A stretch of DNA of 64,000 nt from assembly GCA_016179105.1 (NCBI GenBank), contig JACOSB010000035.1, positions 9,479-73,478 of the forward strand. The letters run 5' to 3'. A program made the translations under genes and the position numbers. The notes under the pieces were generated by a model. The model saw only the letters and a program-made list of their open reading frames with translations, was not told the DNA's origin and did not search any database. Position 1 is the first letter of the stretch. Every line of letters starts with the position of its first letter. The DNA comes from Candidatus Acetothermia bacterium (GTDB lineage: Bacteria; Bipolaricaulota; Bipolaricaulia; RBG-16-55-9; DRXL01). This document shows, piece after piece, positions 37,338 to 54,811 of the stretch.

Positions 37338-37366
37338 ATTATAGAACGCTTCGCTGTCAATATCAA
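37338..37366 (-). promoter_or_regulatory. Sigma70 promoter of the his operon
   Basis: TTGATA-N17-TATAAT on the minus strand. Confidence 0.75.
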
Positions 37367-37389
37367 GCGAGGCTTCCTCGGACGTTCGG

Positions 37390-37490: not shown

Positions 37491-38462
37491 TTAGTAAGTC
37501 CGGGTCAATGATCGGTCGGATGCTTTTTCTTGCTCCCGCGTCAGGAAGCGCGCGACGGCCACCATTCCGTTCAAGCCGTGCTTCTCTTCAACCCCGGGAG
37601 AGTAATTGGTCGTTCCATTCACGTCATACGTAATTTTGTGGCCGAAGCGGTCTTCGATGAATTCGATGCCTGCCAAGTCGATCTCGTTCTCGCGCATGAA
37701 CGAGATGTACTGGTCAAGAATTGGGTCATCAAAGCCCTGGCGCAATTCAAAGAGATTTTGACGATCTGCACCTGTCGGCACAGCATCGGCTGTAGGACAG
37801 AACGCGTCTCCCGTCTCACAGCGCTCGGCAGGGCAGAGTTGGAAGCCTTTACTTGTGTCTGATTTTATCGCGTACAAAAATTCGCCGTCGACGATCTCTA
37901 CGCGCGTGATGAAGGGCTCCGCCGGCTCGACGTACTCTTGCAAGAGTGTGATGTGATCTCGTGGTACCTCAAAATCCGCCGAATCTACGTAGAGATCGAA
38001 CGCGTCGAGCGAACGGAAAAGTTGAACGCCGAGTCCCTTTCCCCCGCGATTGTGTTTGGTGATGAAAGGCAGAGGCATCTTGCGAGCTGCTATCTTTAGC
38101 TCTTCACCGTATCCAGAGACGGCAATTGTGTGCGGTGTGCGAATTCCCGCTCGTTGTAGCGCCGCGTATTGGCGTACCTTGCTGATCTCTAGAGCGAATG
38201 CTCGACTGCCGTTGATAACGCGTCGACCATAGCCCTCCAGCCAGGCGATCAACTCACGGTTATAATCGACACTCTCGATATGCCCGCGCGTGTGCGACGA
38301 GGGGCTCATGCGATTCAAGAAAATGCCTTCGGGCGGCTCTGAGTCTAAATCAAAGTGCCCGGTCTGAATGAACCACTCTTCGTGAGGCAAACCCGCGCGA
38401 TCGAGTTCGCGCACCAACGGAGGTAACCAATCCGGATTTTCGTACAGTACATAAATCTTCAT
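37491..38462 (-). CDS. ATP-grasp (RimK/glutathione-synthetase-like) ligase
   Basis: RVING..A..LE.SK..Q, PFITKHNRGGKGLGV, LQEYV, RVE.V.G, AGIEFI, DVNGTTNY. Start 38462 lies 2 nt after the TusA stop. Confidence 0.82.
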   Translation of the reverse strand: MKIYVLYENPDWLPPLVRELDRAGLPHEEWFIQTGHFDLDSEPPEGIFLNRMSPSSHTRGHIESVDYNRELIAWLEGYGRRVINGSRAFALEISKVRQYAALQRAGIRTPHTIAVSGYGEELKIAARKMPLPFITKHNRGGKGLGVQLFRSLDAFDLYVDSADFEVPRDHITLLQEYVEPAEPFITRVEIVDGEFLYAIKSDTSKGFQLCPAERCETGDAFCPTADAVPTGADRQNLFELRQGFDDPILDQYISFMRENEIDLAGIEFIEDRFGHKITYDVNGTTNYSPGVEEKHGLNGMVAVARFLTREQEKASDRSLTRTY

Positions 38463-38464
38463 CG

Positions 38465-38713
38465 CTACTGACTTCCTTTCTCCAGCAAGATGCGCCATTC
38501 GGCGTCTCCGGTCTTCTCGATTCCTAAAATCTTGTGTCCAGCGTTCTCGGCCCAACGCGGGATTGTCTCCAACGAGAGGGGATAATCCAACAATACTTCT
38601 AGCTGCTCACCCGGTCGTAATGCTTCTATTTTTTTTTTCGTCATCATCTGCGGATAGGGGCAAATCTCGCCTCGCACATCGAGTTTATGCAACGTCTTTG
38701 TAGCTACTGACAT
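38465..38713 (-). CDS. TusA/SirA (YeeD/TsuB-like) sulfur carrier
   Basis: LDVRGEICPYP (CPxP), G..LEVLLDYP, IP.W....GH. AGGAGAG SD before ATG 38713. Confidence 0.92.
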   Translation of the reverse strand: MSVATKTLHKLDVRGEICPYPQMMTKKKIEALRPGEQLEVLLDYPLSLETIPRWAENAGHKILGIEKTGDAEWRILLEKGSQ

Positions 38714-38736
38714 CAAGTCACTCTCCTATAAGTTTC

Positions 38737-39780
38737 TTACCCTTTGATCGTGGCCGGTACTCTCTGTTCGTCCGGCTTCCGCCCTAATTTCTTAAGTTTC
38801 TCGAATCCTTCCATGAACAAGAAGAAGCTCGCGGTCCACGCGCCCAGCACAATGAATGCCGTGGTCGTTAGGCTACTGAGCGCAAGCACGGAAAGCCCCG
38901 TGAAGCCATGCCCAATGTTGCAGCCGCCCGCGACTTGGGCTCCAAAGCCCATGAGAATACCACCCGCGAGCGCTTGCAACGTCCTACTTGCTGACGGAAG
39001 TCTCAGCTTCGCTTCGCCGCAGAGCCGACTTGCAACAAGAGCTCCAACGAATAATCCGATGAGCAAATAGCTGCCCCAGTCCAGCAACTTAAAATCCCCT
39101 GTAGTGATAAACTCAAAGAGTGAGCGAATTGGGCCGGTGATCGAGAGCCCGTAGGCACGCCCGGTTGCGCTCGAACTGAGCCACGCAGCCAAGCTGATGG
39201 CTCCCAGAATGAGCCCTGTTCTTTTCCAGGACCAGCCCTGTTGATATGTTGAAGGACCAGCTCGTAGCAACCAGACGAAGATCGGGACCCCGATGATGGC
39301 GACCAGAATCCAAACATTCAATCCAGTTAAGTTCGCTAACTGTGGAGTTTCTCCGTTGATCTGGATCGTCTGGGCTCGAAGCAGGTCTTGTAATGGCTTG
39401 AGCACGCCGATGTCAGTTGCAACCGTTGAGAGCCCGAATCCCAAGAGCGCTATGAGTGAACCGATCATGCCCTCGCCGACGCGATAGCACGTGCCGCTGC
39501 CGCAGCTGCCCGCGAGCACCATCCCCATTCCGAAGACGAAGCCACCGACAATGTTGGCTTGCCAGAAGAAAGGCGGCACATCGGGCTTGAGGAGATTCAG
39601 CGAAGCAAAGATCTGAACGCCGATGAGTTGGATCAACAGAGCTGTAGCCCACGCACGCAAAAGCGTCGTGTCACGCAACAATAAAACATCGCGAAAGGCC
39701 GTGTTGATGCAGAAGCGCCCGCGCTGAAGTGTATAACCGAGCGCCACTCCTACTACGAGACCCAATAGAACTGCCGACAC
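38737..39780 (-). CDS. YeeE/YedE (TsuA) family thiosulfate/sulfur transporter
   Basis: LQRGRFC, GGFVFGMGMVLAGSC, LMGFGAQVAGGCNIG, with all three family Cys present. GTG start 39780 after GGAGGAG. Confidence 0.92.
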   Translation of the reverse strand: MSAVLLGLVVGVALGYTLQRGRFCINTAFRDVLLLRDTTLLRAWATALLIQLIGVQIFASLNLLKPDVPPFFWQANIVGGFVFGMGMVLAGSCGSGTCYRVGEGMIGSLIALLGFGLSTVATDIGVLKPLQDLLRAQTIQINGETPQLANLTGLNVWILVAIIGVPIFVWLLRAGPSTYQQGWSWKRTGLILGAISLAAWLSSSATGRAYGLSITGPIRSLFEFITTGDFKLLDWGSYLLIGLFVGALVASRLCGEAKLRLPSASRTLQALAGGILMGFGAQVAGGCNIGHGFTGLSVLALSSLTTTAFIVLGAWTASFFLFMEGFEKLKKLGRKPDEQRVPATIKG

Positions 39781-39793
39781 AGTTTCTCCTCCG

Positions 39794-40762
39794 TTACCAG
39801 CACGTGCTCGTATGGCGGTCACCATTGGCAACTACGCCTCCGGTCGCGACAGGGAATTTTTCGTCACTGCCCCATTCAGCCCAAGAAGCATCATAGACGC
39901 GCACATCTGAATAGCCCAACAGTCTCAATTGAAAGTACGCGAGCGCGGCACGCACGCCCGTCTCGCTGTAGGTCAAGATTGTTCTCGATGGACCGATGTT
40001 GCGATAAAGCAATCTAAGCTCGTTCGCTTTCTTAAAGTATCCGTTCAACTCTAACGCTTTTTCGGCGGGCACGAGCAACGCCCCAGGAATATGTCCAATA
40101 TGCTCTCCGTGCGAATGTCCGCTGCCGTAGCCCATTGCGTATTCTTGAGCTGTGCGCGAGTCGATTACTTGTATGCTTGGGTCTGGTAGATGTTCGAGCA
40201 GCCAATCCCCGGTAACGATCTTCTTCGCGTCGGCGCGCAGATTGAGCTTTGAAGGTGTAAGCGAAGGCGTTTCGTTCGTGAGTCTTCCACCCACAGCGGT
40301 CCACGCAGCCAAACCTCCGTCCAAGAGTTTTACATTCTGAAACTGATAGTATTCGAGAATCCAGAAGAGACGCCCCGCCCAGCGGCTTTGCTCGTCATCG
40401 TACAACACAATCGTCATGTCTCTGTCCATAGCAGCCCGTTCGAGCAAAGGCTGAAGCTGTTCGGGCGAGGCGACTAATCTTGGGAAACCTTGGGTCCACG
40501 TGTTTACGTCTGCGTCCCACAGATTCACAGAATTAGGGATATGCTGGAACCGATACTTGAGCGGGCCACGAGCATCAACGATGCGCACTTTAGACGTCTC
40601 ATCCACGCGCTCCTGAAGCCACTGGGCAGTGACGAGCAAATCGGAATTGGGATAGGTAGCACTGAGCGCTCGAAAGCCGTACAGGCCTGAGCCAATCACG
40701 CTCAAGGCCAAACCCGCTTCTACCGTTCTTTTAAGCAGGTCACGTCGCGAAAGAGTGCTCAT
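39794..40762 (-). CDS. Tat-exported tandem-domain rhodanese (sulfurtransferase) homolog with Cys-to-Ser at the active site
   Basis: SRRDLLK twin-arginine motif; IVDAR....Y...HIP, LDGG..AW, IDSR...EY, GHIPGA, YDASW.EW. Active loop reads TYSETGVRA. Confidence 0.88.
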   Translation of the reverse strand: MSTLSRRDLLKRTVEAGLALSVIGSGLYGFRALSATYPNSDLLVTAQWLQERVDETSKVRIVDARGPLKYRFQHIPNSVNLWDADVNTWTQGFPRLVASPEQLQPLLERAAMDRDMTIVLYDDEQSRWAGRLFWILEYYQFQNVKLLDGGLAAWTAVGGRLTNETPSLTPSKLNLRADAKKIVTGDWLLEHLPDPSIQVIDSRTAQEYAMGYGSGHSHGEHIGHIPGALLVPAEKALELNGYFKKANELRLLYRNIGPSRTILTYSETGVRAALAYFQLRLLGYSDVRVYDASWAEWGSDEKFPVATGGVVANGDRHTSTCW

Positions 40763-40785
40763 GCTTCGTCACTTATCTAGCTCGT

Positions 40786-41976
40786 TTAGCGACTACCGCA
40801 GCAGGGCAAGGCGCACGCCTCACCACCGAGGTTGACGATCGGCAGAGAGTTTAACGCGACACCGAGTAAAGCGGGCACTGAGGTCTTTAGAGCTATAGCG
40901 CCTGCAGGCCGCGGCCCGACGTTGATCGTCTTGATGACTTTCTGCTGCGCCACGTCGACGACGACAACTGTGTTCTGGTTTTGAATCGGGACATAGAATT
41001 TCTTCCCGTCGATCGAAAAATCTCCGGTGATGGGGTTGCCACCCTTGGCCAACTCAATCGTGTTGACGATCTTAAGCTCTTTAAGATCGACCACGCTGAT
41101 CGTCCCGCTGTCGCGGTTGATGATAAAGTTAAACTTCGCGTCGAGGGTGAATTCATCCGTAATTGGGCCCTTGCCCAAACCGTCATCCGGCGTGAGCCGT
41201 TTGACCTCCACAGGCGTTAGTGGGTTGCTCACATCGAAGATGCTCTCGGTCCCGCTTGGCGGTTCGACGTTCTCGACGAAGACCCATTTCCCATCGCGCG
41301 AGGCTGTTCCCATAAAGGGTTCGACTTTTTGATCGGCCTTAGTCAGAACTTTCGGTACCGGCACCGTCGCGATCACTTTAAAGCTCGCCAGATCGATGAC
41401 TGAAAAATTGTCGCTATTGCGGTCTGGGCTGTATGAGTACTTCCCGTCGGGCGAGACGGTGATGTCGCAAGGTCCAGCGTTGTTGTAGGTCTTAAAGTTC
41501 GCGATTACTTCGCCAAAGTTTGGCTTGGATGGATCAGCGCCAATTTTAAAATATGTGTCCGTAAATCGATTGGACGAGATCGTGAACTGCCCATCGGGTG
41601 TTGTCTCTGTGTAGTTCTGGGCCGAGTTGGTCGCGATCTTTTTGACGACCTTACCTTGGGCAAGATCAATCACTTGCACCTCTTTGGCTTGGTCCGCTAG
41701 CAGACCAGTCCAGATTAGGCTGGTCGTCTTAAAGTGCTTATTCGCACCGAAACTAAAGTTGCTCCCGGCGGCGATCGTCTTGACGATCGTGTCAGTCACG
41801 CTGTCGATGAGCGTGACGCTGTTATCGCCTGTGTTGGAGATGGCGATCAAATCCTTGGCTTCGCTTTGTGCAAAGCCCAAAGAGGACCGCGAGAGCACCC
41901 AGGCGACACCCGTCGTAGCACTCATAACTTTGAGGAAAGAACGACGTGAGATCGACTTTTCTTTGCTTCGACTCAT
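40786..41976 (-). CDS. Tat-exported YncE/YVTN-like beta-propeller protein with Cys-rich tail
   Basis: SRRSFLK twin-arginine motif, propeller repeats (SPDGKY.Y, TLDAKF, SIDGKKFYV, INVGPRP), C-terminus CALPCCGSR. AAGGAGG SD before ATG 41976. Confidence 0.82.
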   Translation of the reverse strand: MSRSKEKSISRRSFLKVMSATTGVAWVLSRSSLGFAQSEAKDLIAISNTGDNSVTLIDSVTDTIVKTIAAGSNFSFGANKHFKTTSLIWTGLLADQAKEVQVIDLAQGKVVKKIATNSAQNYTETTPDGQFTISSNRFTDTYFKIGADPSKPNFGEVIANFKTYNNAGPCDITVSPDGKYSYSPDRNSDNFSVIDLASFKVIATVPVPKVLTKADQKVEPFMGTASRDGKWVFVENVEPPSGTESIFDVSNPLTPVEVKRLTPDDGLGKGPITDEFTLDAKFNFIINRDSGTISVVDLKELKIVNTIELAKGGNPITGDFSIDGKKFYVPIQNQNTVVVVDVAQQKVIKTINVGPRPAGAIALKTSVPALLGVALNSLPIVNLGGEACALPCCGSR

Positions 41977-41990
41977 ATGCTTGCCTCCTT

Positions 41991-42010
41991 GGCAGTGACG
42001 CCTCACTGCC
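41991..42010 (-). promoter_or_regulatory. Perfect 8-bp hairpin abutting the Shine-Dalgarno of the beta-propeller gene
   Basis: GGCAGTGA-GGCG-TCACTGCC immediately 5' of AAGGAGG. Confidence 0.5.
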
Positions 42011-42095
42011 TGTCTCAAATAATGCTTATCAGCTACTCATCAAGGTGTGCCATTCTCTTGACAACTAGAGAGAGTTTGACTGAATGACGCTATCT

Positions 42096-42166
42096 AGTGT
42101 ACGCGAGCTGCTAGAACTGTATGCAGGTCTGCCTAAATCAGGCAACCCACATACAGCCCGTACACT
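42096..42166 (-). promoter_or_regulatory. Long imperfect hairpin in the sulfur-operon leader
   Basis: Nested pairs AGTGTACG/CGTACACT, CTGTATG/CATACAG and GCCT/AGGC. Confidence 0.5.
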
Positions 42167-42362
42167 TGCACGGAGAGTGGGGAGCTAATTGGGAAAGAAT
42201 AGGGGGGTGAAACAAGAAAGAGCTCTGACGATTGGATTTAGTGTCCCCTTCGGGGATGGTTGAATCCCCTCGCCTTCTAGGCGAAGGAAAGTTTGGCGAA
42301 ATGTGAGCAAAGCGAACATGAGCCGCCGTTGTCGTTTCTGTACTCGTTCTTTGACTTTGCAT
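42138..42362 (-). CDS. Putative upstream ORF / leader peptide ending CKCTGCMWVA
   Basis: 74-aa ORF just downstream of the promoter at 42389-42417. AAAGGA lies 11 nt before the ATG. All three Cys are in the last 10 codons. Confidence 0.35.
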   Translation of the reverse strand: MQSQRTSTETTTAAHVRFAHISPNFPSPRRRGDSTIPEGDTKSNRQSSFLFHPPILSQLAPHSPCKCTGCMWVA

Positions 42363-42388
42363 TTGGACTCAATTCCTTTAGTGGCTCT

Positions 42389-42417
42389 AAGATATCAGAC
42401 TGTGCCTCACTCGTCAA
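42389..42417 (-). promoter_or_regulatory. Sigma70 promoter of the sulfur operon
   Basis: TTGACG-N17-TATCTT with TG extension on the minus strand, just after the SelD-like stop. Confidence 0.6.
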
Positions 42418-42424
42418 GGATTTC

Positions 42425-43825
42425 TCAATTGGCAACTTGAAATGCCGCCGACCAGTCCGAGATAAAATCTTTAGCAGCCGCGGGCACGGTGAGCGTGCCC
42501 TTGTCGGAGCGCTTACGCTCGATATGCCCGATCACTTGCGGATTGTGTCCCAGTTTTTTCAGCTCTAGCTCGATTTGCTGAATGACTTTGGGGCTGGCGA
42601 CGATTGCGAGCGCCCCGTTCGTGCCAGAAGTTCCGTTTGGAATGATAAACTGCTTGGATGCTTCACGGACTAACTTTTCGTAAATTAACGGGATTCGTTC
42701 GAGCCTCACGTCGACGTTCGCGTTCTCGGCCAGCTCTTGAAAAATGTCCAAGCCGGGGCCGGAGAGATCGCCCGTCGCTTTGATATGCTGACTTGGGTCA
42801 AACGCCTCGTTAAGCTTTGGAGAATGTCCATAGATTACTCGGCCGATTTCCAAATTGGGCTTCGAGAGAAGGTCTACGATATGGTCTTTCGCGCAGCGAA
42901 CTTCTTCGGGTTGAAGACCGAGCTTTTGCAAATAGCCATCGCCCATCACCAATCCCTCGATCCAGAGATTGATCGGGGCGAGATCGCCGAAGGGACGATG
43001 GACAAGAATCAGATCGCCCTTCTGAATTTTGTCGTAGAATGTCGGCGTCTGTCGATCCGTCTCAGCGAAGACGGTCGCGCCGAGCAAAAGCGTTTTCTCC
43101 GAGACGGGCTCGCGCTCCACTAGCTCAAAGCCATAGCGACGTGAATGATCTCGGAGATTCTGCAAGATTTTCTGACGCAGCGATTCGTTGGGGGCGGCAT
43201 AGACTGGATGAATCTGGATATTCTGCACGGCTCCGAGTGAGAAAAGATCATTCAAGGCGTTGTTGATCGCGGCGGCAGTCTGCTGCGGTGCTCCCAGGTC
43301 GATTGTGGGGTCGATCAATTGAATCGTGTCGTTATTCGCGATGAGAAAACCCCGTGGCTGGCCACGCTTCTCGCTCAGGAAAAAATCAAAAAGAGCGAAT
43401 TCGTCTTCGGGCGTATAAGCCTCGATCGTGTGCCCCTTCCCGATCATAATTTGCAGTTGCTTCGCCGGGAATTTTTCATAAAGTTTCAGCCACTTTTGTG
43501 CCAGCGCTTCAGGTTGGCGTGTGCGATAGACCGAAGTGACGGTGATCGCGCGCTCCGGCTTGAATTCACTCACTGAGTCTAGCGAAAACTGTGAGAAAGG
43601 CGCGTGTATGCGCTTGATTTGTGGCGCTCCGTAAAGTGGAGAGATGTCGGCGTCTTCGCGCGGAGCGAGGTTAATGCCCCACTGTTTGAGAGTCGGCTTG
43701 ATCTGATGTAGGGCCGGATAGACAACACGTCGTAAATCAATCTTGACCGCGCAGCCGCAGGCCAATTTATGCGGGTTCAGATTTAAATCAGAAAGATATT
43801 TTTGGATCTCATCCCACGTTTGCAT
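42425..43825 (-). CDS. SelD-related (AIR-synthase/PurM superfamily) putative sulfur-metabolism protein
   Basis: NPHKLACGCAVKIDL..VVYPAL (Cys/Lys loop), REDADI, NNALNDLFSLG (cf. SelD NALSDIYAMG), ATGDLSGPG (cf. TDVTGFG). Longer than canonical SelD. Confidence 0.78.
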   Translation of the reverse strand: MQTWDEIQKYLSDLNLNPHKLACGCAVKIDLRRVVYPALHQIKPTLKQWGINLAPREDADISPLYGAPQIKRIHAPFSQFSLDSVSEFKPERAITVTSVYRTRQPEALAQKWLKLYEKFPAKQLQIMIGKGHTIEAYTPEDEFALFDFFLSEKRGQPRGFLIANNDTIQLIDPTIDLGAPQQTAAAINNALNDLFSLGAVQNIQIHPVYAAPNESLRQKILQNLRDHSRRYGFELVEREPVSEKTLLLGATVFAETDRQTPTFYDKIQKGDLILVHRPFGDLAPINLWIEGLVMGDGYLQKLGLQPEEVRCAKDHIVDLLSKPNLEIGRVIYGHSPKLNEAFDPSQHIKATGDLSGPGLDIFQELAENANVDVRLERIPLIYEKLVREASKQFIIPNGTSGTNGALAIVASPKVIQQIELELKKLGHNPQVIGHIERKRSDKGTLTVPAAAKDFISDWSAAFQVAN

Positions 43826-44329
43826 AGAGCAGGCCCCTTTGAACGCTTGACGTTTTTATTGTGTAGATGGAGACAAAGTTAATAGACGTGCCAACGCTCG
43901 AAAAAATCCCTACGAGACGGATGATTGAAGCTTGAAGATGGGGATAGGCTGCGCGTGAAAAACTAACAGAGTGTGTGCCGACAAAGGCAACCACTGGCGA
44001 GTCTGTTAGCTACGACAAAGGCGATCACCGCACATAAAATTTTCCTCCATTTGGAAACTGTGGGCTATTGTATCACGATAGGTTAGGCCTGTCAAGAAAT
44101 TCAGTGAGTGCCGTTAGCCAAAAAAAGTGATCCTGGTACGATGGGAGTGGGACACGTGGGCTTTAGTCGCACTATAGACTTAGCCTACAATTTTCTTGAG
44201 AGATTGGACGCGAGAAGGTGTATGGAGACAAGAACGGGGCTCACTTCTGCAATGGTCACCTTGCCCAACTTAACTTTTTTTGAATTCCCAACTGATAAAA
44301 GATTTAGTGGTCCTAAGGAGGAGTTTCGC

Positions 44330-47300
44330 GTGTGCACCCATTCTCACACCAAAGATGCTAATGAGCCAAACTGTTTAGCTAGACGCACATGGCTATTATT
44401 CAGTGCATTTCTGTTGACAGCGTTGCTAGTCGGAAGTACGGCTCTAGCTGCTCCCGATCTTTCAATCGCTAAGAGCCACAGCGGTAATTTTACCGTAGGA
44501 ATCAATGGGGTTTACACGATCACGGTCACTAACGTCGGACCGGATAGCACCACCGGAGCAATCACTGTGACGGATACCCTACCCACCGGGTTAAACTTTG
44601 TCTCGGGCACCGGCAGCGGTTGGAGCTGCTCGGCCGTCGGTCAAACCGCGACTTGCACGAATGCCGGCCCGCTCGCCGCCAGTGCCACCAGCAACATTAC
44701 CCTCACCGTGAGCGCAAGCGCTGCGGGAAACTTGACCAATATCGCGAATGTCGCCACATCGGGCGACACAAACTCGGCCAACGATACAGCGAGCGATCCC
44801 ACCACCGTGAACGCGAACCCTCAACCCGATTTGCAGATCACCAAGAGCCATAGCGGAAATTTTACGTTGGGGATCAACAGTGTCTACACCCTAACTGTGA
44901 CCAACGTCGGCTCCGCTAGTACCACAGGCACCATCACTGTCACCGATACTCTTCCGACGGGCTTAAGCTTTGTCTCGGGCATTGGCAGTGGATGGAGCTG
45001 TTCTGCGGTTGTGCTGACCGTGACCTGCACAAACCCTGGTCCCTTGGCTCCGAGCGCAACGGCGAGTATCACACTTACTGTCGGCGTGAACGTAGCTGGC
45101 AACGTAACTAACCTCGCCACTGTCTCGACCTCCGGCGATACCAACGCCTCGAACGATACAGCGAGTGACCCCACTACGGTCAATACAACTCCCCAGCCGG
45201 ACTTAGCGATCAGCAAGAGCCACAGCGGGAATTTTACGGTCGGCGTCAACGGGTCCTATACGCTCACTATCACCAACGTCGGCTCGTCAAGTACGAGTGG
45301 CACAATTACCGTGACGGATACACTGCCTACGGGCCTGAGTTTTGTATCCGGGGTCGGAACGAGTTGGAGCTGCGGAGCGGTGGGACTGACGGTCACTTGT
45401 ACCAACCCCGGCCCGCTCGCGCCGAGCGCCACCAGCACGATCACTCTGACGGTGAGCGTCAGTATCTCAGGGAATGTCACCAATATTGCGACGGTTTCTA
45501 CTGCGGGCGACACGAATGCTGCGAATAATACCGCGAGCAATCCCACAGCCATCAACGCCACCCTCCAACCCGACTTATCGGTCAGCAAGACTCACGCTGG
45601 TAACTTCACCCGAGGAGTGAACGGAACCTACACAATCACAGTCACCAACGTCGGTGCAGCCAGTACCACTGGCACGCTCACGGTAACAGACACGCTCCCC
45701 TCGGGTTTGAGCTTCGTCTCGGGCGCCGGTACTGGCTGGACTTGTTCTGCCGTCGGCCAAACCGTCACTTGCACTAACGCCACCGCGCTTGCTCCCAGCA
45801 CTAGCAGCACGATAACTCTCACCGTCAGTGTTAACGTCGCTGGCAATGTCACCAACATTGCGACCGCCGCGGGCTCTGGTGATACGAACCCAGCGAACGA
45901 TACCACCAGCGACCCGACTACCATCAACACTACGGCACAACCTGATCTTTTGATCAGCAAGAGCCACAGTGGGAATTTTACGGTCGGCGTTAACGGGACC
46001 TATACACTCATTGTCACCAACGTCGGCTCCGCCAGTGCGACGGGGACCCTCACGGTCACGGACACGCTCCCGACGGGCTTGAGCTTTGTCTCGGGCACCG
46101 GCAGCGGCTGGAGCTGCTCGGCCGTCGGTCAAACGGTTACCTGTACTAACCCTGGTCCTTTGGCCGTCAGCGCGAGCAGCACGATTACTCTCACCGTCGG
46201 CGTGAACATCGCGGGCGGGGTGACCAACATCGCGACTGTCACCAACTCTGCCGACACCAATCCAGCGAATAATACTGCCAGTGATCCAACGACTATCGTG
46301 GGAGCCACGGGAGTCGATCTCGCAATTACGAAGAGCCACAGCGGGAATTTTTCTGTTGGGGTGAATGGGACCTATACGATCACGGTGACGAACCTCGGGT
46401 CAGCTAGCACCACTGGAACCATCACCGTGACGGACACGCTGCCCACGGGCATGAGCTTTGTTGCTGGGATCGGCAGCGGCTGGACTTGTTCGGCCAGCGG
46501 TCAGACTGTTAGCTGCACTAATCCCGGCCCACTCGCTCCCAGCGCTAGCAGCACCATTACGCTCACTGTCGGCGTCAATGTCGCCGGAAGCCTGACCAAT
46601 ATTGCCACCGTCGCAGCCTCTGGTGATACAAATTCTGCAAACAATACAGCCAGCGATCTTACGATTATCATGGGCACCAATGGGCTTGACCTGACAATCA
46701 CCAAGAGCCATAGCGGAAATTTCACGCTGGGCGTCAACGGGACCTACACACTTACGGTAACGAACGTCGGCTCCGCCAGCACGACGGGGACCATTACTGT
46801 GACAGACACGTTGCCCACGGGTTTGAGCTTTGTTGCTGGGATCGGCAGCGGCTGGACTTGTTCGACTGTTGGCCCAATTGTCACGTGTACGAACCCCGGC
46901 CCCCTCGCTCCCAGCGCTAGCAGCACGATCACTCTAACAGTGAATGTCAGTCTCGCCGGGAATTTGACGAATATAGCAACTGTTTCGGTCTCAGGTGATA
47001 CCAATTCGACGAACAACATCGCCAGTGATGCCACGACTATCAATGCGACGCCTCAACCCGACCTTTCGATCAGCAAGAGTCACAGCGCGAGTTTTATAGC
47101 CGGGACCGATGGGACCTATACGATCACGGTGACGAACGTGGGCTCCGCCAGCACGACGGGGACCATTACCGTGACGGACACGTTGCCCACGGGCATGAGC
47201 TTTGTTGCTGGGATCGGCAGCGGCTGGACTTGTTCGGCTGTCGGGCAAATTGTCACGTGTACGAACCCCGGCCCACTCGCTCCTAGTGCCACCAGCACTA

Positions 47301-49498
47301 TTACTCTCACGGTGGGTGTCAACGTCGCGGGCAGCCTGACCAATATCGCCACCGTCGCAGCCTTAGGCGATATGAATTCCGCCAACAATATTACGAGTGA
47401 CTCTACTACTGTAAACGCGGCAACTCACCCGGATCTGGCGATAAGCAAGACTCACAGTGGGAATTTTACGGTGGGAATCAATGGGACGTTTACCCTCGCG
47501 GTCACCAACGTGGGCTCGGCCAGCACGACGGGAACGATCACTCTGACGGACACACTGCCTACGGGGTTGGGGTTCGTTTCAGGGACAGGCACGAATTGGA
47601 GCTGTGGAGCTTCCGGGCAGATCATCACTTGCACCAACTCTGGTCCTTTGGCACCAAGCGCGGTCAGTAATCTCACTCTTACAGTGAGTGTGAATATTGC
47701 CGGCAATCTCACGAACACTGCAACCATCTCAACCCAAGATGATACCAATGCCACCAACAACACGGCCACTGATCCGGTGACCATTAACGCTACAGCTCAG
47801 CCAGATCTTTCGATCAGCAAGAGCCACAGCGGAAACTTTACGGTGGGAGTCAATGGAACATACACACTCACCGTGACGAACATGGGCTCCGCGAGTACCA
47901 CCGGAACGATCACCGTCACGGACTCGTTGCCCGCGGGGTTGAGCTTCGTCTCCGGCATAGGTAGCGCCTGGACGTGCAACGCTGTCTCTAAGACCGTCAC
48001 GTGTACCAATCCCGGCCCGCTCGCGCCCAGCGCCACGAGCACAGCCACACTGACCGTCGGCGTGAGTGTCTCGGGCAATCTGACCAACATCGCCACCGTC
48101 GCCTCCACGGGAGATGCCAATGCGACGAACAATACTGCCAGCGATCTCACTACGGTGAACGCAGCCCTGGAACCCGATCTCTCTCTCAGCAAGAGCCACA
48201 GCGGGAATTTTACCGTGGGACTCGTCGGGACCTATACACTCACGGTAACCAATGTCGGCTCGGCGAGCACAACCGGAGTCATCACTGTGACCGATACGTT
48301 GCCATTGGGATTGAGCTTCATATCAGGGACGGGCGCGGGCTGGAATTGCAGTGCGATGAGCTTAACGATTATTTGTACCAATCCGGGGCCGCTCGCACCG
48401 AGCACCAGCAGCACGATCTCTCTTGTGGTCGGCGTGAGCATCGCCGGGAACTGGACGAATATCGCCACGGTCTCGACCGCCGGCGATACGAATCCCTCCA
48501 ACAACGCAGCCAACGATCCCACGATCGTCAACGCCTCGCCTCAACCCGACTTGCAGATCACCAAGAGCCATAACGGGAATTTTACGGTGGGAACGACCGG
48601 CTCGTATGCGCTGACGATCACTAACGTCGGTGCCGCCAGCACGACAAGTCTGATCACTGTGGTCGATACGTTGCCGACGGGCCTGAGCTTTTTGGCAGGC
48701 ACCGGCAGCGGCTGGACCTGCGGAGCCGTGGCCCAGGTTATCACTTGCACCAATCCCGGCCCGCTCGCGTCCACTGCCGCAAGCAATCTCACACTGACAG
48801 TCGGAGTGAGTCTTTCCGGGGGCCTCACCAACGTCGCGACGGCCGCGACTCTCGGAGATACGAACCCGGTCAACAATTTCACGACGGACCCGACGATCGT
48901 CATGCCCGCGAGCAACGTTCTGATCCGCGCGACCATGCGGGCTGATGTGCTAACGCCCTTCATCGCTTACACTGTTATTCTGACTAACGCTGGCACGCAC
49001 GATCAGACGGACAACCCGGGCAACGAATTTGAAGCGCCGATTCCTCCCGGAACTCAGTTTATCCCGGAGCAGAGCAGTGCGACGTCCGGGACGCTCACGT
49101 TTGACGCGGCGACCAACAAAGCCCTTTGGAACGGCTCCATCCCAATCGGCCAGAGCGTGACGATCAGCATCGTCGTCAATGCTCAGACAATCCTGGGAGC
49201 GGCTAGCCAACCTTCCGATCGGCAAGCGAATGCCCTTCCTGTTTCGCTCGTATTTTTGAGCCCGTTGGTAGCCGGTCTTGCTTTAGTATTGAGGAAGAGA
49301 CGCGGGTGGGTCTTAGTTATGCTGCTCTTTTTTTTGGCTACGGCGAGCACCGGATGCACATTGTTCAACTTCAATCATCCGTTGGTCTGCAACCAAGGAC
49401 AAGTGCACTACGATTCGGACGGCAACGGAATCAACGATTCGGTCGAATTGACCAACGACCCGCGAATGCCTCAGCCCGGCACGCCAACGTGTATCTGA
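44330..49498 (+). CDS. Giant surface protein with 12 DUF11-like Ig repeats and a C-terminal membrane anchor
   Basis: GTG start 44330 after AAGGAGGAG, then a signal peptide. Repeats read PDL.I.KSHSGNF..G.NG.Y...VTNVG...VTDTLP.GL.F....W.C......C. TM segments near the C-terminus. Confidence 0.88.
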   Translation: MCTHSHTKDANEPNCLARRTWLLFSAFLLTALLVGSTALAAPDLSIAKSHSGNFTVGINGVYTITVTNVGPDSTTGAITVTDTLPTGLNFVSGTGSGWSCSAVGQTATCTNAGPLAASATSNITLTVSASAAGNLTNIANVATSGDTNSANDTASDPTTVNANPQPDLQITKSHSGNFTLGINSVYTLTVTNVGSASTTGTITVTDTLPTGLSFVSGIGSGWSCSAVVLTVTCTNPGPLAPSATASITLTVGVNVAGNVTNLATVSTSGDTNASNDTASDPTTVNTTPQPDLAISKSHSGNFTVGVNGSYTLTITNVGSSSTSGTITVTDTLPTGLSFVSGVGTSWSCGAVGLTVTCTNPGPLAPSATSTITLTVSVSISGNVTNIATVSTAGDTNAANNTASNPTAINATLQPDLSVSKTHAGNFTRGVNGTYTITVTNVGAASTTGTLTVTDTLPSGLSFVSGAGTGWTCSAVGQTVTCTNATALAPSTSSTITLTVSVNVAGNVTNIATAAGSGDTNPANDTTSDPTTINTTAQPDLLISKSHSGNFTVGVNGTYTLIVTNVGSASATGTLTVTDTLPTGLSFVSGTGSGWSCSAVGQTVTCTNPGPLAVSASSTITLTVGVNIAGGVTNIATVTNSADTNPANNTASDPTTIVGATGVDLAITKSHSGNFSVGVNGTYTITVTNLGSASTTGTITVTDTLPTGMSFVAGIGSGWTCSASGQTVSCTNPGPLAPSASSTITLTVGVNVAGSLTNIATVAASGDTNSANNTASDLTIIMGTNGLDLTITKSHSGNFTLGVNGTYTLTVTNVGSASTTGTITVTDTLPTGLSFVAGIGSGWTCSTVGPIVTCTNPGPLAPSASSTITLTVNVSLAGNLTNIATVSVSGDTNSTNNIASDATTINATPQPDLSISKSHSASFIAGTDGTYTITVTNVGSASTTGTITVTDTLPTGMSFVAGIGSGWTCSAVGQIVTCTNPGPLAPSATSTITLTVGVNVAGSLTNIATVAALGDMNSANNITSDSTTVNAATHPDLAISKTHSGNFTVGINGTFTLAVTNVGSASTTGTITLTDTLPTGLGFVSGTGTNWSCGASGQIITCTNSGPLAPSAVSNLTLTVSVNIAGNLTNTATISTQDDTNATNNTATDPVTINATAQPDLSISKSHSGNFTVGVNGTYTLTVTNMGSASTTGTITVTDSLPAGLSFVSGIGSAWTCNAVSKTVTCTNPGPLAPSATSTATLTVGVSVSGNLTNIATVASTGDANATNNTASDLTTVNAALEPDLSLSKSHSGNFTVGLVGTYTLTVTNVGSASTTGVITVTDTLPLGLSFISGTGAGWNCSAMSLTIICTNPGPLAPSTSSTISLVVGVSIAGNWTNIATVSTAGDTNPSNNAANDPTIVNASPQPDLQITKSHNGNFTVGTTGSYALTITNVGAASTTSLITVVDTLPTGLSFLAGTGSGWTCGAVAQVITCTNPGPLASTAASNLTLTVGVSLSGGLTNVATAATLGDTNPVNNFTTDPTIVMPASNVLIRATMRADVLTPFIAYTVILTNAGTHDQTDNPGNEFEAPIPPGTQFIPEQSSATSGTLTFDAATNKALWNGSIPIGQSVTISIVVNAQTILGAASQPSDRQANALPVSLVFLSPLVAGLALVLRKRRGWVLVMLLFFLATASTGCTLFNFNHPLVCNQGQVHYDSDGNGINDSVELTNDPRMPQPGTPTCI
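44453..48916 (+). repeat. Twelve intragenic tandem repeats of exactly 372 nt (124 aa)
   Basis: KSH/KTH codons at 44471, 44843, 45215, 45587 ... 48563; 48563-44471 = 11 x 372. Confidence 0.92.
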
Positions 49499-52512: not shown

Positions 52513-53580
52513 CTAAGGCACGCACACCTGACCGCTTGGCCCATTCTTGAATGTGTGGTTCCCAGGATTGCCCGCGCCGTCTTGCTTACCCAATTTGTTA
52601 TTATGCTCGATCATATTATGCCCCTTGAAGGAGACGCTACCCGTGAATTCGTCTTCGGCATAGCCACACTGTTTTAATGTAGAGCCGATGCCCCAGTCGG
52701 TGTTGCTCGCCACGACGGAGTCGGCCAATCTGAGCTGCGCTTGACCGCTCAGCTCGATACCATTGCAAAACTCCACTCGACATTCGCGGAGGAACCCATT
52801 GTCCGAAATGGTGCTGCCTTGAATCTCTGTCTTCGATGACTCTAGAAGCAGTAACCCCTCCGCTCCGTTGTCGGAGACTTGGGAGTTGCCGAGCATCACG
52901 AAAGCCGTGTCACTGACCAGAAATCCCAGCCGATTGTATCGTATGGCGGAGTTTGTCGCGGCGACTTGAGCGGCCTCTTTAGCATCGACGCCAAAATTGT
53001 TGCTCGTCACCGGAGTGTTCGAGAGACTCGTCTGCGAAAATCCCTTGGCCAAAAGCCCGACGGAATTTCGACAGAGCAAGGAGTTGCTCAGCGTCACTTG
53101 CGCCGCACCGTCAGCGAGCAGGCCCTGCGAGACGTCGCAGACGCGGACATCTTTCAGGGTCACGTTGGCTCTGCCAGAGACACTCACTCCGACGGTGGGG
53201 ACGCTGAGTGTAGAAGTCACCGTAAGCCCCTCGATCGTGACCAGAATATCTACACTGGCATCGATATGCAGAACAGCCAGGCCTAAGTTGGGAGATATCT
53301 CCAAGTAAGTTCGCTCTTGGCCGGCGCCGTGCAGCGTGACGCTCCGGGTGATCTCCACGGTCTCCAGAAAAATCCCCGCGCCTAGGCAGATCACTGCTCC
53401 GGAGGGAGCCATATTGATCGAGGCCTGAATGGGGTCTCCGGGTTGCACGGTGGTGTCGCATTCCGGCTGCGCGCCGCCCCATCGACCGTTGTTCGCGAGA
53501 GCCAGAGTGATAATAATCAAGAAAAAGAGGCAGCCTCGCCGGATTTTGAGAGACCGACTTCCCATAAATACCCCCCGCAT
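52513..53580 (-). CDS. Secreted right-handed parallel beta-helix protein
   Basis: Signal peptide, IQA.IN.A..G..I.L..G.F.E pectin-lyase-like start, repeated I..N..G strands. Start may be 53562. Confidence 0.78.
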   Translation of the reverse strand: MRGVFMGSRSLKIRRGCLFFLIIITLALANNGRWGGAQPECDTTVQPGDPIQASINMAPSGAVICLGAGIFLETVEITRSVTLHGAGQERTYLEISPNLGLAVLHIDASVDILVTIEGLTVTSTLSVPTVGVSVSGRANVTLKDVRVCDVSQGLLADGAAQVTLSNSLLCRNSVGLLAKGFSQTSLSNTPVTSNNFGVDAKEAAQVAATNSAIRYNRLGFLVSDTAFVMLGNSQVSDNGAEGLLLLESSKTEIQGSTISDNGFLRECRVEFCNGIELSGQAQLRLADSVVASNTDWGIGSTLKQCGYAEDEFTGSVSFKGHNMIEHNNKLGKQDGAGNPGNHTFKNGPSGQVCVP

Positions 53581-53709
53581 CTCCAGCCTACACGGTATAA
53601 CCCAATTCTACACGCCGATCCAGTATTTGCTGGAATGCACGCTCATTTCAGCGCATCGGAATCGAAGAAAAGTCTATTTGACACGCTCGCTCGAGACTGA
53701 TCGCAAGCC

Positions 53710-54729: not shown

Positions 54730-54811
54730 GATGACCTCCTTGGGCATGATACTCTATCTTCTCCCAATCAGCGTAAAAAATCCATAGAAACTCCATCGAC
54801 ATAGAAGCTTC

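What the first reader, a model, noticed from the sequence alone, without database searches (positions are those of the whole stretch)
37491..43825. Candidate new sulfur-trafficking system: SelD-like, Tat beta-propeller, Tat Ser-rhodanese, YeeE, TusA and ATP-grasp
Seen: six co-oriented genes, the last five separated by only 2-23 nt. Two carry twin-arginine signals, YeeE keeps all three Cys, TusA keeps CPxP, and the ATP-grasp gene starts 2 nt after TusA. Established: YeeE/YeeD (TsuA/TsuB) pairs import thiosulfate and hand sulfur to a TusA-like carrier; SelD/PurM-fold enzymes activate Se or S with ATP; ATP-grasp ligases form amide bonds. Inference: an extracytoplasmic capture step (propeller plus rhodanese), membrane import, a cytoplasmic carrier, ATP-dependent activation and a ligase together could build a sulfur-containing (or selenium-containing) small molecule or peptide conjugate. 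I do not recognise this six-gene combination as a described pathway.
Basis: partly seen in the sequence, partly recalled or inferred. Interest (0 to 1): 0.85.

Follow-up and report, generated by a model that had tools for sequence, protein, structure and literature searches.

The report
SelD-like sulfur uptake and activation operon
A groundwater Acetothermia bacterium carries a conserved six-gene operon that pairs a thiosulfate-type membrane importer and its sulfur carrier with a rare, never-tested relative of selenophosphate synthetase, most likely to capture sulfur and activate it with ATP for assimilation. The enzyme family and its link to the carrier were already predicted by computer in 2014.

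Summary
Six co-oriented minus-strand genes occupy 37491-43825, with two Tat signals, a YeeE that keeps all three relay cysteines, a TusA with CPYP, and an ATP-grasp gene 2 nt after TusA. The "SelD-like" gene belongs to a named but uncharacterised family: NCBIfam NF038049, predicted in silico by Li et al. 2014, who already linked it to TusA/SirA.

Synteny is far above chance. TusA lies within 5 kb in 90 of 125 non-redundant SelD-like loci, against 0 of 84 control loci. All six genes recur in the same order in two other bacterial contigs. Five of the six families co-cluster in about 8 marine Thaumarchaeota loci.

Three points appear to be undescribed:
- Orthologs of the Tat propeller all end in CxLPCCG.
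- The Tat rhodanese has Ser in place of the catalytic Cys and a conserved ...CW tail.
- In 12 of 18 bacterial relatives a CysK/M-like gene sits directly upstream of SelD-like. In some, an SsuABC-like importer replaces the propeller/rhodanese/YeeE module.

This points to sulfur assimilation into cysteine rather than a peptide conjugate. The ATP-grasp belongs to a very large family that is otherwise unlinked to sulfur genes, so its membership is uncertain. The biochemistry is untested. I rate it a new variant of a known kind.

The parts
44067..44095 (-). Promoter-like site (TTGACA, 17 nt, TACAAT, TG extension) upstream of the SelD-like gene; candidate operon promoter
   Evidence: 11 of 12 matches, the best in the scanned region. 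This is a consensus match only, not evidence of function.
42425..43825 (-). SelD-related putative sulfur metabolism protein (PurM/SelD fold, 466 aa). The N-terminal G-C25-A-V-K28 loop and the Asp/Asn ATP-metal motifs are invariant across the family.
   Evidence: NF038049 scores 453 bits against a cutoff of 250; true SelD models score far below their cutoffs. Invariant residues come from alignment A1. The AF2 model has pLDDT 92.6. The best Foldseek matches are SelD structures (5l16, E 2e-17), followed by ThiL and HypE. The family has only 95 clusters at E<=1e-30 among 1.84 billion representatives.
41977..42424 (-). 448-nt intergenic leader between SelD-like and the propeller gene. Its 3' ~200 nt are conserved with the 80%-identity relative L081. 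It contains a 19-bp hairpin at 42116-42157 and a weak promoter-like site at 42389-42417.
   Evidence: Sequence read, alignment, fold (z-score for the whole region only -1.5), promoter scan. No Rfam match. Function unknown.
40786..41976 (-). Tat-exported 7-bladed YVTN beta-propeller with an invariant internal P-C170-D and an invariant C-terminal C388-x-L-P-C392-C393-G tail
   Evidence: Pfam YNCE and TIGR02276. The Tat motif SRRSFLK is read from the sequence. Only about 15 ortholog clusters exist, and all carry RRxFLK and the CxLPCCG tail. The AF2 model has pLDDT 85 with a low-confidence tail. Foldseek returns only generic YVTN and lactonase propellers.
39794..40762 (-). Tat-exported tandem-rhodanese protein with the catalytic Cys replaced by Ser (YSETGVRA) and a conserved C-terminal H-x-S-T-C-W tail
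   Evidence: Pfam Rhodanese in two stretches. The same Ser plus CW-tail variant occurs in L005, in L081 (in a shifted frame) and in L174.
38737..39780 (-). YeeE/TsuA-like sulfur (thiosulfate) importer with all three relay cysteines
   Evidence: PF04143 at 280 bits. It scores below the NCBIfam TsuA cutoffs, 281 bits against 400. It matches 6LEO at E 3e-58 with C22, C91 and C293 aligned.
38465..38716 (-). TusA/YeeD-like cytoplasmic sulfur carrier with the CPYP motif
   Evidence: PF01206 at 87 bits. It scores below the cutoffs of YedF, TsuB and TusA. A TusA gene lies next to SelD-like in 90 of 125 loci.
37491..38462 (-). ATP-grasp ligase of an uncharacterised, widespread RimK-related family. It starts 2 nt after the TusA stop. 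Membership in the system is uncertain.
   Evidence: It recurs after SelD-like or TusA in 6 of 18 bacterial-clade loci, across three architectures. The family is unlinked to sulfur genes elsewhere.
37338..37366 (-). Promoter-like site between the ATP-grasp gene and hisG. It marks the probable downstream boundary of the unit.
   Evidence: 11 of 12 matches, with terminator-like hairpins just upstream at 37368-37380. The 80%-identity relative L081 has different genes downstream, not the his operon.

Best explanation
This is an assimilatory sulfur-acquisition operon built around the SelD-like/TusA pair.

Proposed sequence of steps:
1. Two folded proteins are exported by the Tat pathway: the YVTN propeller with the CxLPCCG tail and the Ser-variant rhodanese with the ...CW tail. 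They bind an external inorganic sulfur species (thiosulfate, polysulfide or S0). They carry it on their C-terminal cysteines, much as SoxY carries sulfur on its C-terminal Cys arm. This step is inferred.
2. The TsuA-like YeeE passes the sulfur across the membrane along its three-cysteine relay. This rests on homology to a solved and tested protein.
3. The CPxP cysteine of the YeeD/TusA-like carrier takes the sulfur as a persulfide or thiosulfonate. This rests on homology.
4. The SelD-like enzyme spends ATP to convert carrier-bound sulfane sulfur or sulfide into an activated form. By analogy with selenophosphate synthesis this is most simply monothiophosphate. The step makes uptake irreversible and supplies a sulfur donor. 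It is inferred from the fold, the conserved Cys-x-x-Lys loop, the metal-binding Asp residues and the synteny.
5. The sulfur is used for cysteine synthesis. In most bacterial relatives a CysK/M-like enzyme is encoded directly upstream of SelD-like. In this genome it must be encoded elsewhere. This step is inferred from relatives.

The ATP-grasp ligase may act on the product, or it may only be co-transcribed.
For: Domain identities.

SelD fold and conserved catalytic-type residues: and Li et al. 2014 (PMC4210487).

Synteny:
- TusA lies within 5 kb of SelD-like in 90 of 125 non-redundant loci, YeeE in 47 and rhodanese in 37. The control set gave 0 of 84.
- The identical six-gene order occurs in L081-83 (80% identity) and in L005 (49-71% identity).
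- Thaumarchaeota loci carry [TusA-YeeE-propeller-propeller] divergent from [SelD-like-TusA-TusA-rhodanese].

Modularity: in L169, L170 and L178 an SsuABC-like ABC importer plus DsrE replaces the propeller/rhodanese/YeeE module, next to the same CysK/M-like-SelD-like(-TusA)(-ATP-grasp) core; only L169 and L170 carry the ATP-grasp. In L174 a Cys-active Tat rhodanese replaces the propeller.

Cysteine link: a CysK/M-like gene sits immediately upstream of SelD-like, often overlapping it, in 12 of 18 bacterial-clade loci.

C-terminal Cys tails are invariant in the exported proteins.

Published chemistry: YeeD forms a persulfide or perthiosulfonate on its Cys and releases H2S (PMC11073785). Hand-over of sulfur from periplasmic SoxYZ to a YeeE-like importer has been proposed (PMC11582611).
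Against: - No member of the SelD-like family has been assayed, and thiophosphate is not a known metabolite.
- This window has no CysK/M-like gene within 64 kb.
- Archaeal loci almost never carry CysK/M-like (1 of 107). They carry an acylphosphatase gene instead (56 of 107).
- In Sulfolobales the family sits near DsrE/TusA genes usually associated with sulfur oxidation (Li 2014).
- The propeller fold gives no functional clue, and its tail is modelled with low confidence.
- Co-transcription could not be tested, because no RNA runs hold this sequence.
- The 448-nt gap and a weak internal promoter-like site allow SelD-like to be transcribed separately.
Confidence: 0.45

Rival explanations
1. Feeder for dissimilatory sulfur oxidation or disproportionation. 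Imported sulfane sulfur on TusA would be passed to an energy-conserving system encoded elsewhere (sHdr, rDsr or similar), with SelD-like as an accessory activator.
For: TusA, DsrE and rhodanese are the standard sulfur-relay set of sulfur oxidisers. In Sulfolobales and Thermoproteales SelD-like lies near DsrE-like, DSR and APS-reductase genes (Li 2014). DsrE occurs in 14 of 125 loci.
Against: No Hdr, Dsr, Sox, SQR or APS-reductase gene recurs among neighbours in the 125 loci. The strongest bacterial neighbour is a cysteine-synthase-like gene. The family also occurs in marine Thaumarchaeota and in Acetothermia, which are not known sulfur oxidisers (my own knowledge). An ATP-spending step is hard to reconcile with an energy-yielding pathway.
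Confidence: 0.15
2. Biosynthesis of a sulfur-containing small molecule or peptide conjugate, with the ATP-grasp ligase as the committed step.
For: The ATP-grasp starts 2 nt after TusA. It follows SelD-like or TusA in 6 of 18 bacterial-clade loci with three different importer architectures. L171 pairs SelD-like with a methyltransferase and MetK.
Against: The ATP-grasp is absent from all 107 non-bacterial-clade loci. Its family is very large and shows no TusA, YeeE or SelD-like neighbours in 84 loci. In L089 the same DUF3179-ATP-grasp-SDR arrangement lacks the sulfur cassette that L170 has in front of the ATP-grasp. The adjacency may therefore be inherited position rather than function. No precursor peptide, NRPS or tailoring genes are present.
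Confidence: 0.15
3. A selenium system. SelD-like would be a divergent selenophosphate synthetase fed by a YedE/YedF-like importer-carrier pair.
For: The best NCBIfam hit of the TusA is YedF, at 61 bits (cutoff 79). YeeE partly matches YedE/FdhT. The rhodanese weakly matches ExtH of a selenite/tellurite operon. SelD-YedE-YedF association is known (my own knowledge; Lin et al. 2015).
Against: All these scores are below their cutoffs, and YeeE scores much higher to TsuA (281 bits against 115). SelD models score only 24-36 bits against cutoffs of 125-291. No selA, selB, ybbB or yqeBC-type gene appears among the recurrent neighbours. The family is present in Crenarchaeota that lack every known selenium trait (Li 2014).
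Confidence: 0.08
4. Sulfane-sulfur homeostasis or detoxification. The system would remove or buffer reactive sulfur rather than acquire it.
For: Rhodaneses and TusA-type proteins limit sulfane-sulfur accumulation in some bacteria (PMC9163753, title listed). In such a scheme, ATP-dependent conversion followed by an acylphosphatase-type hydrolysis in archaea would amount to a disposal route.
Against: YeeE homologs characterised so far are importers (PMC11073785, PMC11582611). Linkage to CysK/M-like and SsuABC-like importers points to acquisition.
Confidence: 0.07

Closest known systems
SelD-like family of Li et al. 2014 (BMC Genomics 15:908), equal to NCBIfam NF038049 'SelD-related putative sulfur metabolism protein'
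   Same: The window protein passes the curated model (453 bits against 250). It keeps the Cys-x-x-Lys loop and the Asp/Asn motifs, and it sits in an operon with a TusA/SirA-like gene and a rhodanese.
   Different: The family was described only in Sulfolobales and Thermoproteales and was stated to be absent from bacteria. Here it is in an Acetothermia bacterium. It has no acylphosphatase partner. It is joined to YeeE, two Tat-exported Cys-tailed proteins and an ATP-grasp gene, and in relatives to a CysK/M-like gene. The family has no experimental function.
TsuA/TsuB (YeeE/YeeD) thiosulfate uptake pair of E. coli and Spirochaeta thermophila
   Same: The YeeE has the same fold family with all three relay cysteines (6LEO, E 3e-58). 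It is followed by a TusA-family carrier with the CPxP Cys.
   Different: Both proteins score below the NCBIfam TsuA and TsuB cutoffs. The pair is embedded with exported partner proteins and an ATP-dependent SelD-like enzyme, which TsuAB systems lack.
Selenophosphate synthetase SelD with YedE/YedF
   Same: A PurM-fold enzyme with an N-terminal Cys-Lys loop is encoded together with a YeeE/YedE-family membrane protein and a TusA/YedF-family carrier. The logic of 'import, carry, activate with ATP' is the same.
   Different: Sequence identity to SelD is about 16-18%, and the SelD models are failed. The protein has about 120 extra residues in its N-terminal half. No selenium-utilisation genes are linked.
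SoxYZ periplasmic sulfur carrier handing sulfur to SoxT (a YeeE-like importer)
   Same: Extracytoplasmic proteins with a cysteine at the extreme C-terminus are encoded next to a YeeE-family importer. One Thaumarchaeota propeller ends in ...NFNCGG, which resembles the GGCGG arm of SoxY (my own knowledge).
   Different: There is no sequence or fold relationship. The carriers here are a YVTN propeller and a Ser-variant rhodanese, and no Sox enzymes are present.
Periplasmic rhodaneses (Sud, PspE, YnjE, ExtH)
   Same: An exported rhodanese-fold protein in a sulfur or selenium context.
   Different: [quoted passage not shown]
RimK/LysX-type ATP-grasp ligases
   Same: ATP-grasp fold. The nearest solved relatives are RimK (E about 8e-6), GshAB and LysX/ArgX-type proteins.
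   Different: It fails the rimK_fam model (52 bits against 143). It carries its own invariant GFxLCPxxC motif. The substrate is unknown.

Membership tests
NF038049 SelD_rel_HyperS (SelD-like, Li 2014) | Score above the curated whole-protein cutoff of the equivalog model | tested here: met
   453.5 bits against a cutoff of 250, covering residues 7-457.
NF038049 SelD_rel_HyperS (SelD-like, Li 2014) | N-terminal Cys-x-x-Lys loop and conserved Asp/Asn ATP-metal ligands on a PurM/SelD fold | tested here: met
   G24, C25, K28, D30, D58, D60, N164-D166, D172, N189, N192-D193 and D353 are invariant or nearly invariant in 25 sequences. The best fold matches are SelD structures.
NF038049 SelD_rel_HyperS (SelD-like, Li 2014) | Genomic association with a SirA/TusA-like gene | tested here: met
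   TusA is in the same operon. Across the family, TusA lies within 5 kb in 90 of 125 loci.
NF038049 SelD_rel_HyperS (SelD-like, Li 2014) | Enzymatic activity (proposed thiophosphate synthesis) | not testable with these tools
   No experimental report was found.
Selenophosphate synthetase SelD (TIGR00476 / NF010705) | Score above the curated cutoff | tested here: not met
   24 bits against 125, and 36 bits against 291.
Thiosulfate transporter TsuA/YeeE | Sulf_transp fold with the three conserved relay cysteines (C22, C91, C293 of StYeeE) | tested here: met
   PF04143 at 280 bits. The alignment to 6LEO places Cys at all three positions.
Thiosulfate transporter TsuA/YeeE | Score above the NCBIfam TsuA cutoffs | tested here: not met
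   NF052577 scores 281 against 400. NF041049 scores 219 against 645.
TusA / YeeD (TsuB) sulfur carrier | TusA fold with the CPxP active-site cysteine | tested here: met
   PF01206 at 86.6 bits. The sequence reads EICPYPQ.
TusA / YeeD (TsuB) sulfur carrier | Score above the cutoff of a specific equivalog (TsuB, TusA or YedF) | tested here: not met
   TsuB 51 against 147.5, TusA 40.5 against 78, YedF 61 against 79.
Catalytic rhodanese (thiosulfate/3-MP sulfurtransferase) | Tandem rhodanese domains | tested here: met
   PF00581, two stretches, 125 bits.
Catalytic rhodanese (thiosulfate/3-MP sulfurtransferase) | Catalytic cysteine in the C-terminal domain active-site loop | tested here: not met
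   The loop reads YSETGVRA, where relatives have C(Q/R)xGxR(A/S). The same Ser occurs in L005, L081 and L174.
Tat-exported proteins | Twin-arginine motif S/T-R-R-x-F/L-L-K followed by a hydrophobic stretch | tested here: met
   SRRSFLK in the propeller and SRRDLLK in the rhodanese. RRxFLK is invariant in the propeller orthologs. Actual export was not tested.
RimK-family alpha-L-glutamate ligase | Score above the TIGR00768 cutoff | tested here: not met
   51.6 bits against 143.4. Pfam RimK scores 23 against 21, which is borderline.
YVTN beta-propeller repeat proteins | YVTN repeats forming a 7-bladed propeller | tested here: met
   TIGR02276 at 65 bits against 27.85. The AF2 model matches 1l0q at E 3e-19.

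The most novel reading that the evidence does not exclude
The SelD-like enzyme makes monothiophosphate (or another phospho-activated sulfur) from TusA-bound sulfane sulfur and ATP. This would be a previously unknown biological sulfur donor. It would both trap sulfur imported through YeeE and feed a dedicated CysK/M-like enzyme, giving an ATP-driven, high-affinity route of sulfur assimilation. The route would be shared by Acetothermia, Fraserbacteria, many Crenarchaeota and abundant marine Thaumarchaeota. The Cys-tailed Tat propeller and the Ser-rhodanese would be a new class of extracytoplasmic sulfur carriers.
Probability: 0.25. Interest if true: 0.85.

Novelty: new variant of a known kind. 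Interest (0 to 1): 0.6.

Why it matters
The function of the SelD-like family has been open since 2014, and it is the only close sister of selenophosphate synthetase. This operon and its relatives turn a vague 'sulfur metabolism' label into a testable chain with defined partners. The chain runs from exported Cys-tailed carriers to YeeE, TusA, SelD-like and then a CysK/M-like enzyme.

If SelD-like makes thiophosphate, that would add a new activated sulfur metabolite and a new cysteine route. It would also bear on how selenium and sulfur activation diverged.

The presence of five of the six families in marine Thaumarchaeota suggests the system matters for sulfur acquisition in oligotrophic water. 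If instead it is only an importer with accessory proteins, the finding is an ordinary variant of TsuAB-type uptake.

Tried and rejected
- A single-protein genome scan for SelD-like found only one distant locus. The alignment-based scan was needed.
- Rfam at a permissive threshold found nothing in 36-45 kb. The conserved leader between SelD-like and the propeller therefore matches no known riboswitch. Its overall fold energy is not unusual (z -1.5).
- The propeller structure search returned only generic YVTN, lactonase, NirN and AztD propellers. The model could not place the Cys tail with confidence. The idea that the tail plugs into the propeller next to Cys170 remains untested.
- Sequencing-run search found only groundwater and cave DNA runs and no RNA. 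Co-transcription is therefore untested.
- I searched the window for CysK/M-like, acylphosphatase, ThiF-like and DsrE-like genes that accompany SelD-like elsewhere. None is present within 64 kb.
- I checked whether the ATP-grasp family is generally sulfur-linked. None of the six families appeared in 84 loci. The only recurrent neighbour was an SfnG/SsuD-like monooxygenase, in 17 of 84 loci. This is suggestive of organosulfur metabolism but weak.
- Four literature searches found no experimental work on the SelD-like family.
It was rerun without that sequence.

Full report
**What is there**

- The SelD-like gene (42425-43825) is followed by a 448-nt non-coding stretch.
- Five tightly packed genes come next: a propeller (40786-41976), a tandem rhodanese (39794-40762), YeeE (38737-39780), TusA (38465-38716) and an ATP-grasp gene (37491-38462).
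- The gaps between those five are 23, 13, about 20 and 2 nt.
- Pfam and NCBIfam confirm each family.
- Both exported proteins carry classic twin-arginine motifs (SRRSFLK, SRRDLLK).
- YeeE aligns with the solved Spirochaeta thermophila YeeE (6LEO, E 3e-58), with cysteines at all three relay positions.
- TusA has CPYP.
- The rhodanese active-site loop reads YSETGVRA, with Ser where active relatives have Cys.

The strongest promoter-like site of the region lies upstream of SelD-like (44095-44067). Another lies between the ATP-grasp gene and hisG (37366-37338). An 80%-identity relative has the same six genes but different genes downstream. The unit therefore ends at the ATP-grasp gene, and the his operon is unrelated.

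The propeller protein is 100% identical to an NCBI entry from a Candidatus Acetothermia bacterium. The DNA is held in groundwater metagenome runs.

**The SelD-like gene is a member of a known, untested family**

- It passes NCBIfam NF038049, 'SelD-related putative sulfur metabolism protein', at 453 bits against a cutoff of 250. It fails the true SelD models.
- Li et al. 2014 (PMC4210487) defined this family in Sulfolobales and Thermoproteales. They noted the conserved Cys, Lys, Asp and Asn residues. They found SirA/TusA-like, DsrE-like ('Prx-like') and rhodanese genes nearby, and an acylphosphatase fusion. They proposed synthesis of a thiophosphate compound, and they reported the family absent from bacteria.
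- My alignment of 25 members shows G24, C25, K28 and the Asp/Asn motifs invariant.
- The AlphaFold model is confident (pLDDT 92.6). Its best structural matches are SelD structures, followed by ThiL and HypE.
- At the sequence level, only human SEPHS1 in the PDB is detectable, and only over the C-terminal two thirds.
- The family is rare: 95 clusters at E<=1e-30 among 1.84 billion representative proteins.
- I found no experimental paper on it.

**Synteny**

I collected 168 loci with SelD-like homologs from genomes and metagenomes, of which 125 are non-redundant.

Within 5 kb of SelD-like, over all 125 loci:
- TusA occurs in 90.
- YeeE occurs in 47.
- Rhodanese occurs in 37.
- A YVTN propeller occurs in 14.

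As a background control, 84 loci centred on ATP-grasp homologs contained none of these families.

The full six-gene order recurs in L081-83 (80% identity) and in a Bipolaricaulota MAG, L005 (49-71% identity).

About eight marine Thaumarchaeota loci carry a divergent pair of operons. One reads [TusA-YeeE-propeller-propeller] and the other [SelD-like-TusA-TusA-rhodanese], with 68 nt between the two start codons in L015. Five of the six families therefore co-cluster in both domains of life.

**What appears to be new**

1. The window's propeller belongs to a small ortholog group of about 15 clusters. All have a Tat signal, an invariant internal P-C-D and an invariant C-terminal C-x-L-P-C-C-G tail. 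One Thaumarchaeota propeller ends in ...NFNCGG.
2. The Ser-variant rhodanese is also a conserved type. L005, L081 and L174 share the Tat signal, the Ser, and a C-terminal ...(S/L)CW tail. In L174 a second Tat rhodanese with an active Cys takes the place of the propeller.
3. In the bacterial clade (18 loci), a cysteine-synthase-like PLP enzyme sits immediately upstream of SelD-like in 12 loci, often overlapping it. It scores 287 bits to TIGR01136 cysKM, below the cutoff of 344.
4. In L169, L170 and L178 an SsuABC-like ABC importer with DsrE replaces the propeller/rhodanese/YeeE module next to the same core. The swap supports reading that module as the uptake part and CysK/M-like + SelD-like + TusA as the cytoplasmic core.
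5. Archaeal loci have an acylphosphatase gene after SelD-like (56 of 107) and almost never CysK/M-like. Bacterial loci show the reverse.

**The ATP-grasp gene**

- Its family is very large: 6979 hits at E<=1e-5 in the protein database, and more than 593 species-level genome loci at about 50-79% identity. These span Bacillaceae, Burkholderiaceae, Myxococcota and others.
- It shows no sulfur-relay neighbours in 84 loci. The only recurrent neighbour is an SfnG/SsuD-like monooxygenase, in 17 of 84 loci. In one Acetothermia genome the neighbour is a PAPS reductase.
- Within the bacterial SelD-like clade it follows SelD-like or TusA in 6 of 18 loci, across three architectures.
- A Fraserbacteria genome has DUF3179-ATP-grasp-SDR without any sulfur cassette. 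L170 has the cassette inserted between DUF3179 and the same ATP-grasp-SDR pair.
- The adjacency may therefore be functional, or it may be inherited position. I put this at roughly even odds.

**Most likely mechanism**

The sequence is capture, import, carriage, ATP-dependent activation, and use for cysteine.
- The import and carrier steps rest on homology to tested proteins. YeeD forms a Cys persulfide or perthiosulfonate and releases H2S (PMC11073785).
- The idea of an exported carrier handing sulfur to a YeeE-type importer has a published parallel in SoxYZ and SoxT (PMC11582611).
- The activation step is inferred from the SelD fold, the conserved residues and the near-obligate TusA partner.
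- The link to cysteine is inferred from relatives only. This window has no CysK/M-like gene within 64 kb.

An ATP-spending trap behind a channel-like importer would make sense in sulfur-poor groundwater and deep ocean water. That is reasoning, not evidence.

**Rivals**

- Feeding dissimilatory sulfur oxidation: no energy-conserving sulfur enzymes recur nearby.
- A selenium system: all selenium-family scores are below cutoff, no sel genes are linked, and the family occurs in lineages without selenium traits.
- A sulfur-containing conjugate made by the ATP-grasp: that gene is absent from all archaeal-type loci.
- Sulfane-sulfur detoxification.

**Verdict**

Its core is already in the literature and in NCBI's annotation as a prediction, so it is not categorically new. 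The bacterial six-gene form is a new variant of a known kind, resting on three features:
- the two Cys-tailed Tat proteins;
- the link to a cysteine-synthase-like gene;
- the recurrence in Thaumarchaeota.

This variant gives a clear experimental route to the function of the SelD-like family.

Noticed in passing
window 41977-42424 (hairpin 42116-42157, minus strand); L081 11402-11746: The 448-nt spacer between SelD-like and the propeller gene is conserved over its 3' ~200 nt with the 80%-identity relative, including 30-nt identical runs. It contains a 19-bp hairpin. The window copy has an extra ~95 nt. It has no Rfam match and occurs once in the window.
   Followed up: partly
window 44108-49498 (+): A 1796-aa protein with 12 DUF11/CLIPPER repeats is transcribed divergently from SelD-like. 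A similar 1110-aa repeat protein and the ECF-sigma/anti-sigma (RskA) genes beyond it hold the same position in L081. This upstream synteny is therefore conserved in close relatives only.
   Followed up: partly
L081/L082/L083 12947-13910: The rhodanese gene of the 80%-identity relative is interrupted by a 1-nt frameshift. The shifted frame continues with YSETGVRA...RHSSTCW. The same break appears in three independent assemblies, so it is either a real pseudogene or a shared assembly error.
   Followed up: partly
L009-L016, L019, L186, L190 (marine Thaumarchaeota/Nitrososphaerales): An eight-gene divergent cluster: [TusA-YeeE-propeller-propeller] against [SelD-like-TusA-TusA-rhodanese]. One propeller has a Tat-like RRDFIK signal. 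The other is membrane-anchored and ends in ...NFNCGG. The rhodanese there is cytoplasmic with an active Cys.
   Followed up: partly
L002, L004, L005, L007, L027, L169, L170, L173, L174, L177, L178, L180: A divergent cysteine-synthase-like (CysK/M) gene lies immediately upstream of SelD-like, often overlapping it. It is absent from the window and from archaeal loci.
   Followed up: yes
archaeal SelD-like loci, e.g. L020 11400-11678, L022 11430-11729: A small acylphosphatase gene (Pfam PF00708, 102 bits) directly follows SelD-like in 56 of 107 non-bacterial loci, and is fused to it in Thermoproteales. It is never present in the bacterial clade, which complements the CysK/M-like gene.
   Followed up: partly
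L173 3801-4874; L171 9001-14409: Two variant architectures. L173 has a cytoplasmic rhodanese-TusA fusion after SelD-like. L171 reads SelD-like, a 173-aa unknown protein, an ArsM/UbiE-like methyltransferase, rhodanese, TusA and SAM synthetase.
   Followed up: no
L113-L166 (Bacillaceae and others), e.g. L154 4694-5755: Homologs of the ATP-grasp gene sit next to an SfnG/SsuD-like flavin monooxygenase in 17 of 84 loci. In Acetothermia locus L087 the neighbour is a PAPS reductase. This is a weak hint that this uncharacterised ATP-grasp family is tied to sulfur assimilation.
   Followed up: partly
window 52513-54747 (-): A NosD-like beta-helix protein and a Vgb-lyase/SGL-type beta-propeller protein lie a few kb upstream of the cluster, beyond the anti-sigma genes. 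L081 has another YVTN propeller on the opposite strand just after its ATP-grasp gene (16282-17310).
   Followed up: no
proteins P0373-P0433: A second tier of more distant SelD-like relatives (150-330 bits, 430-515 aa) exists in the representative library. It may be a sister subfamily, and its genomic context was not examined.
   Followed up: no
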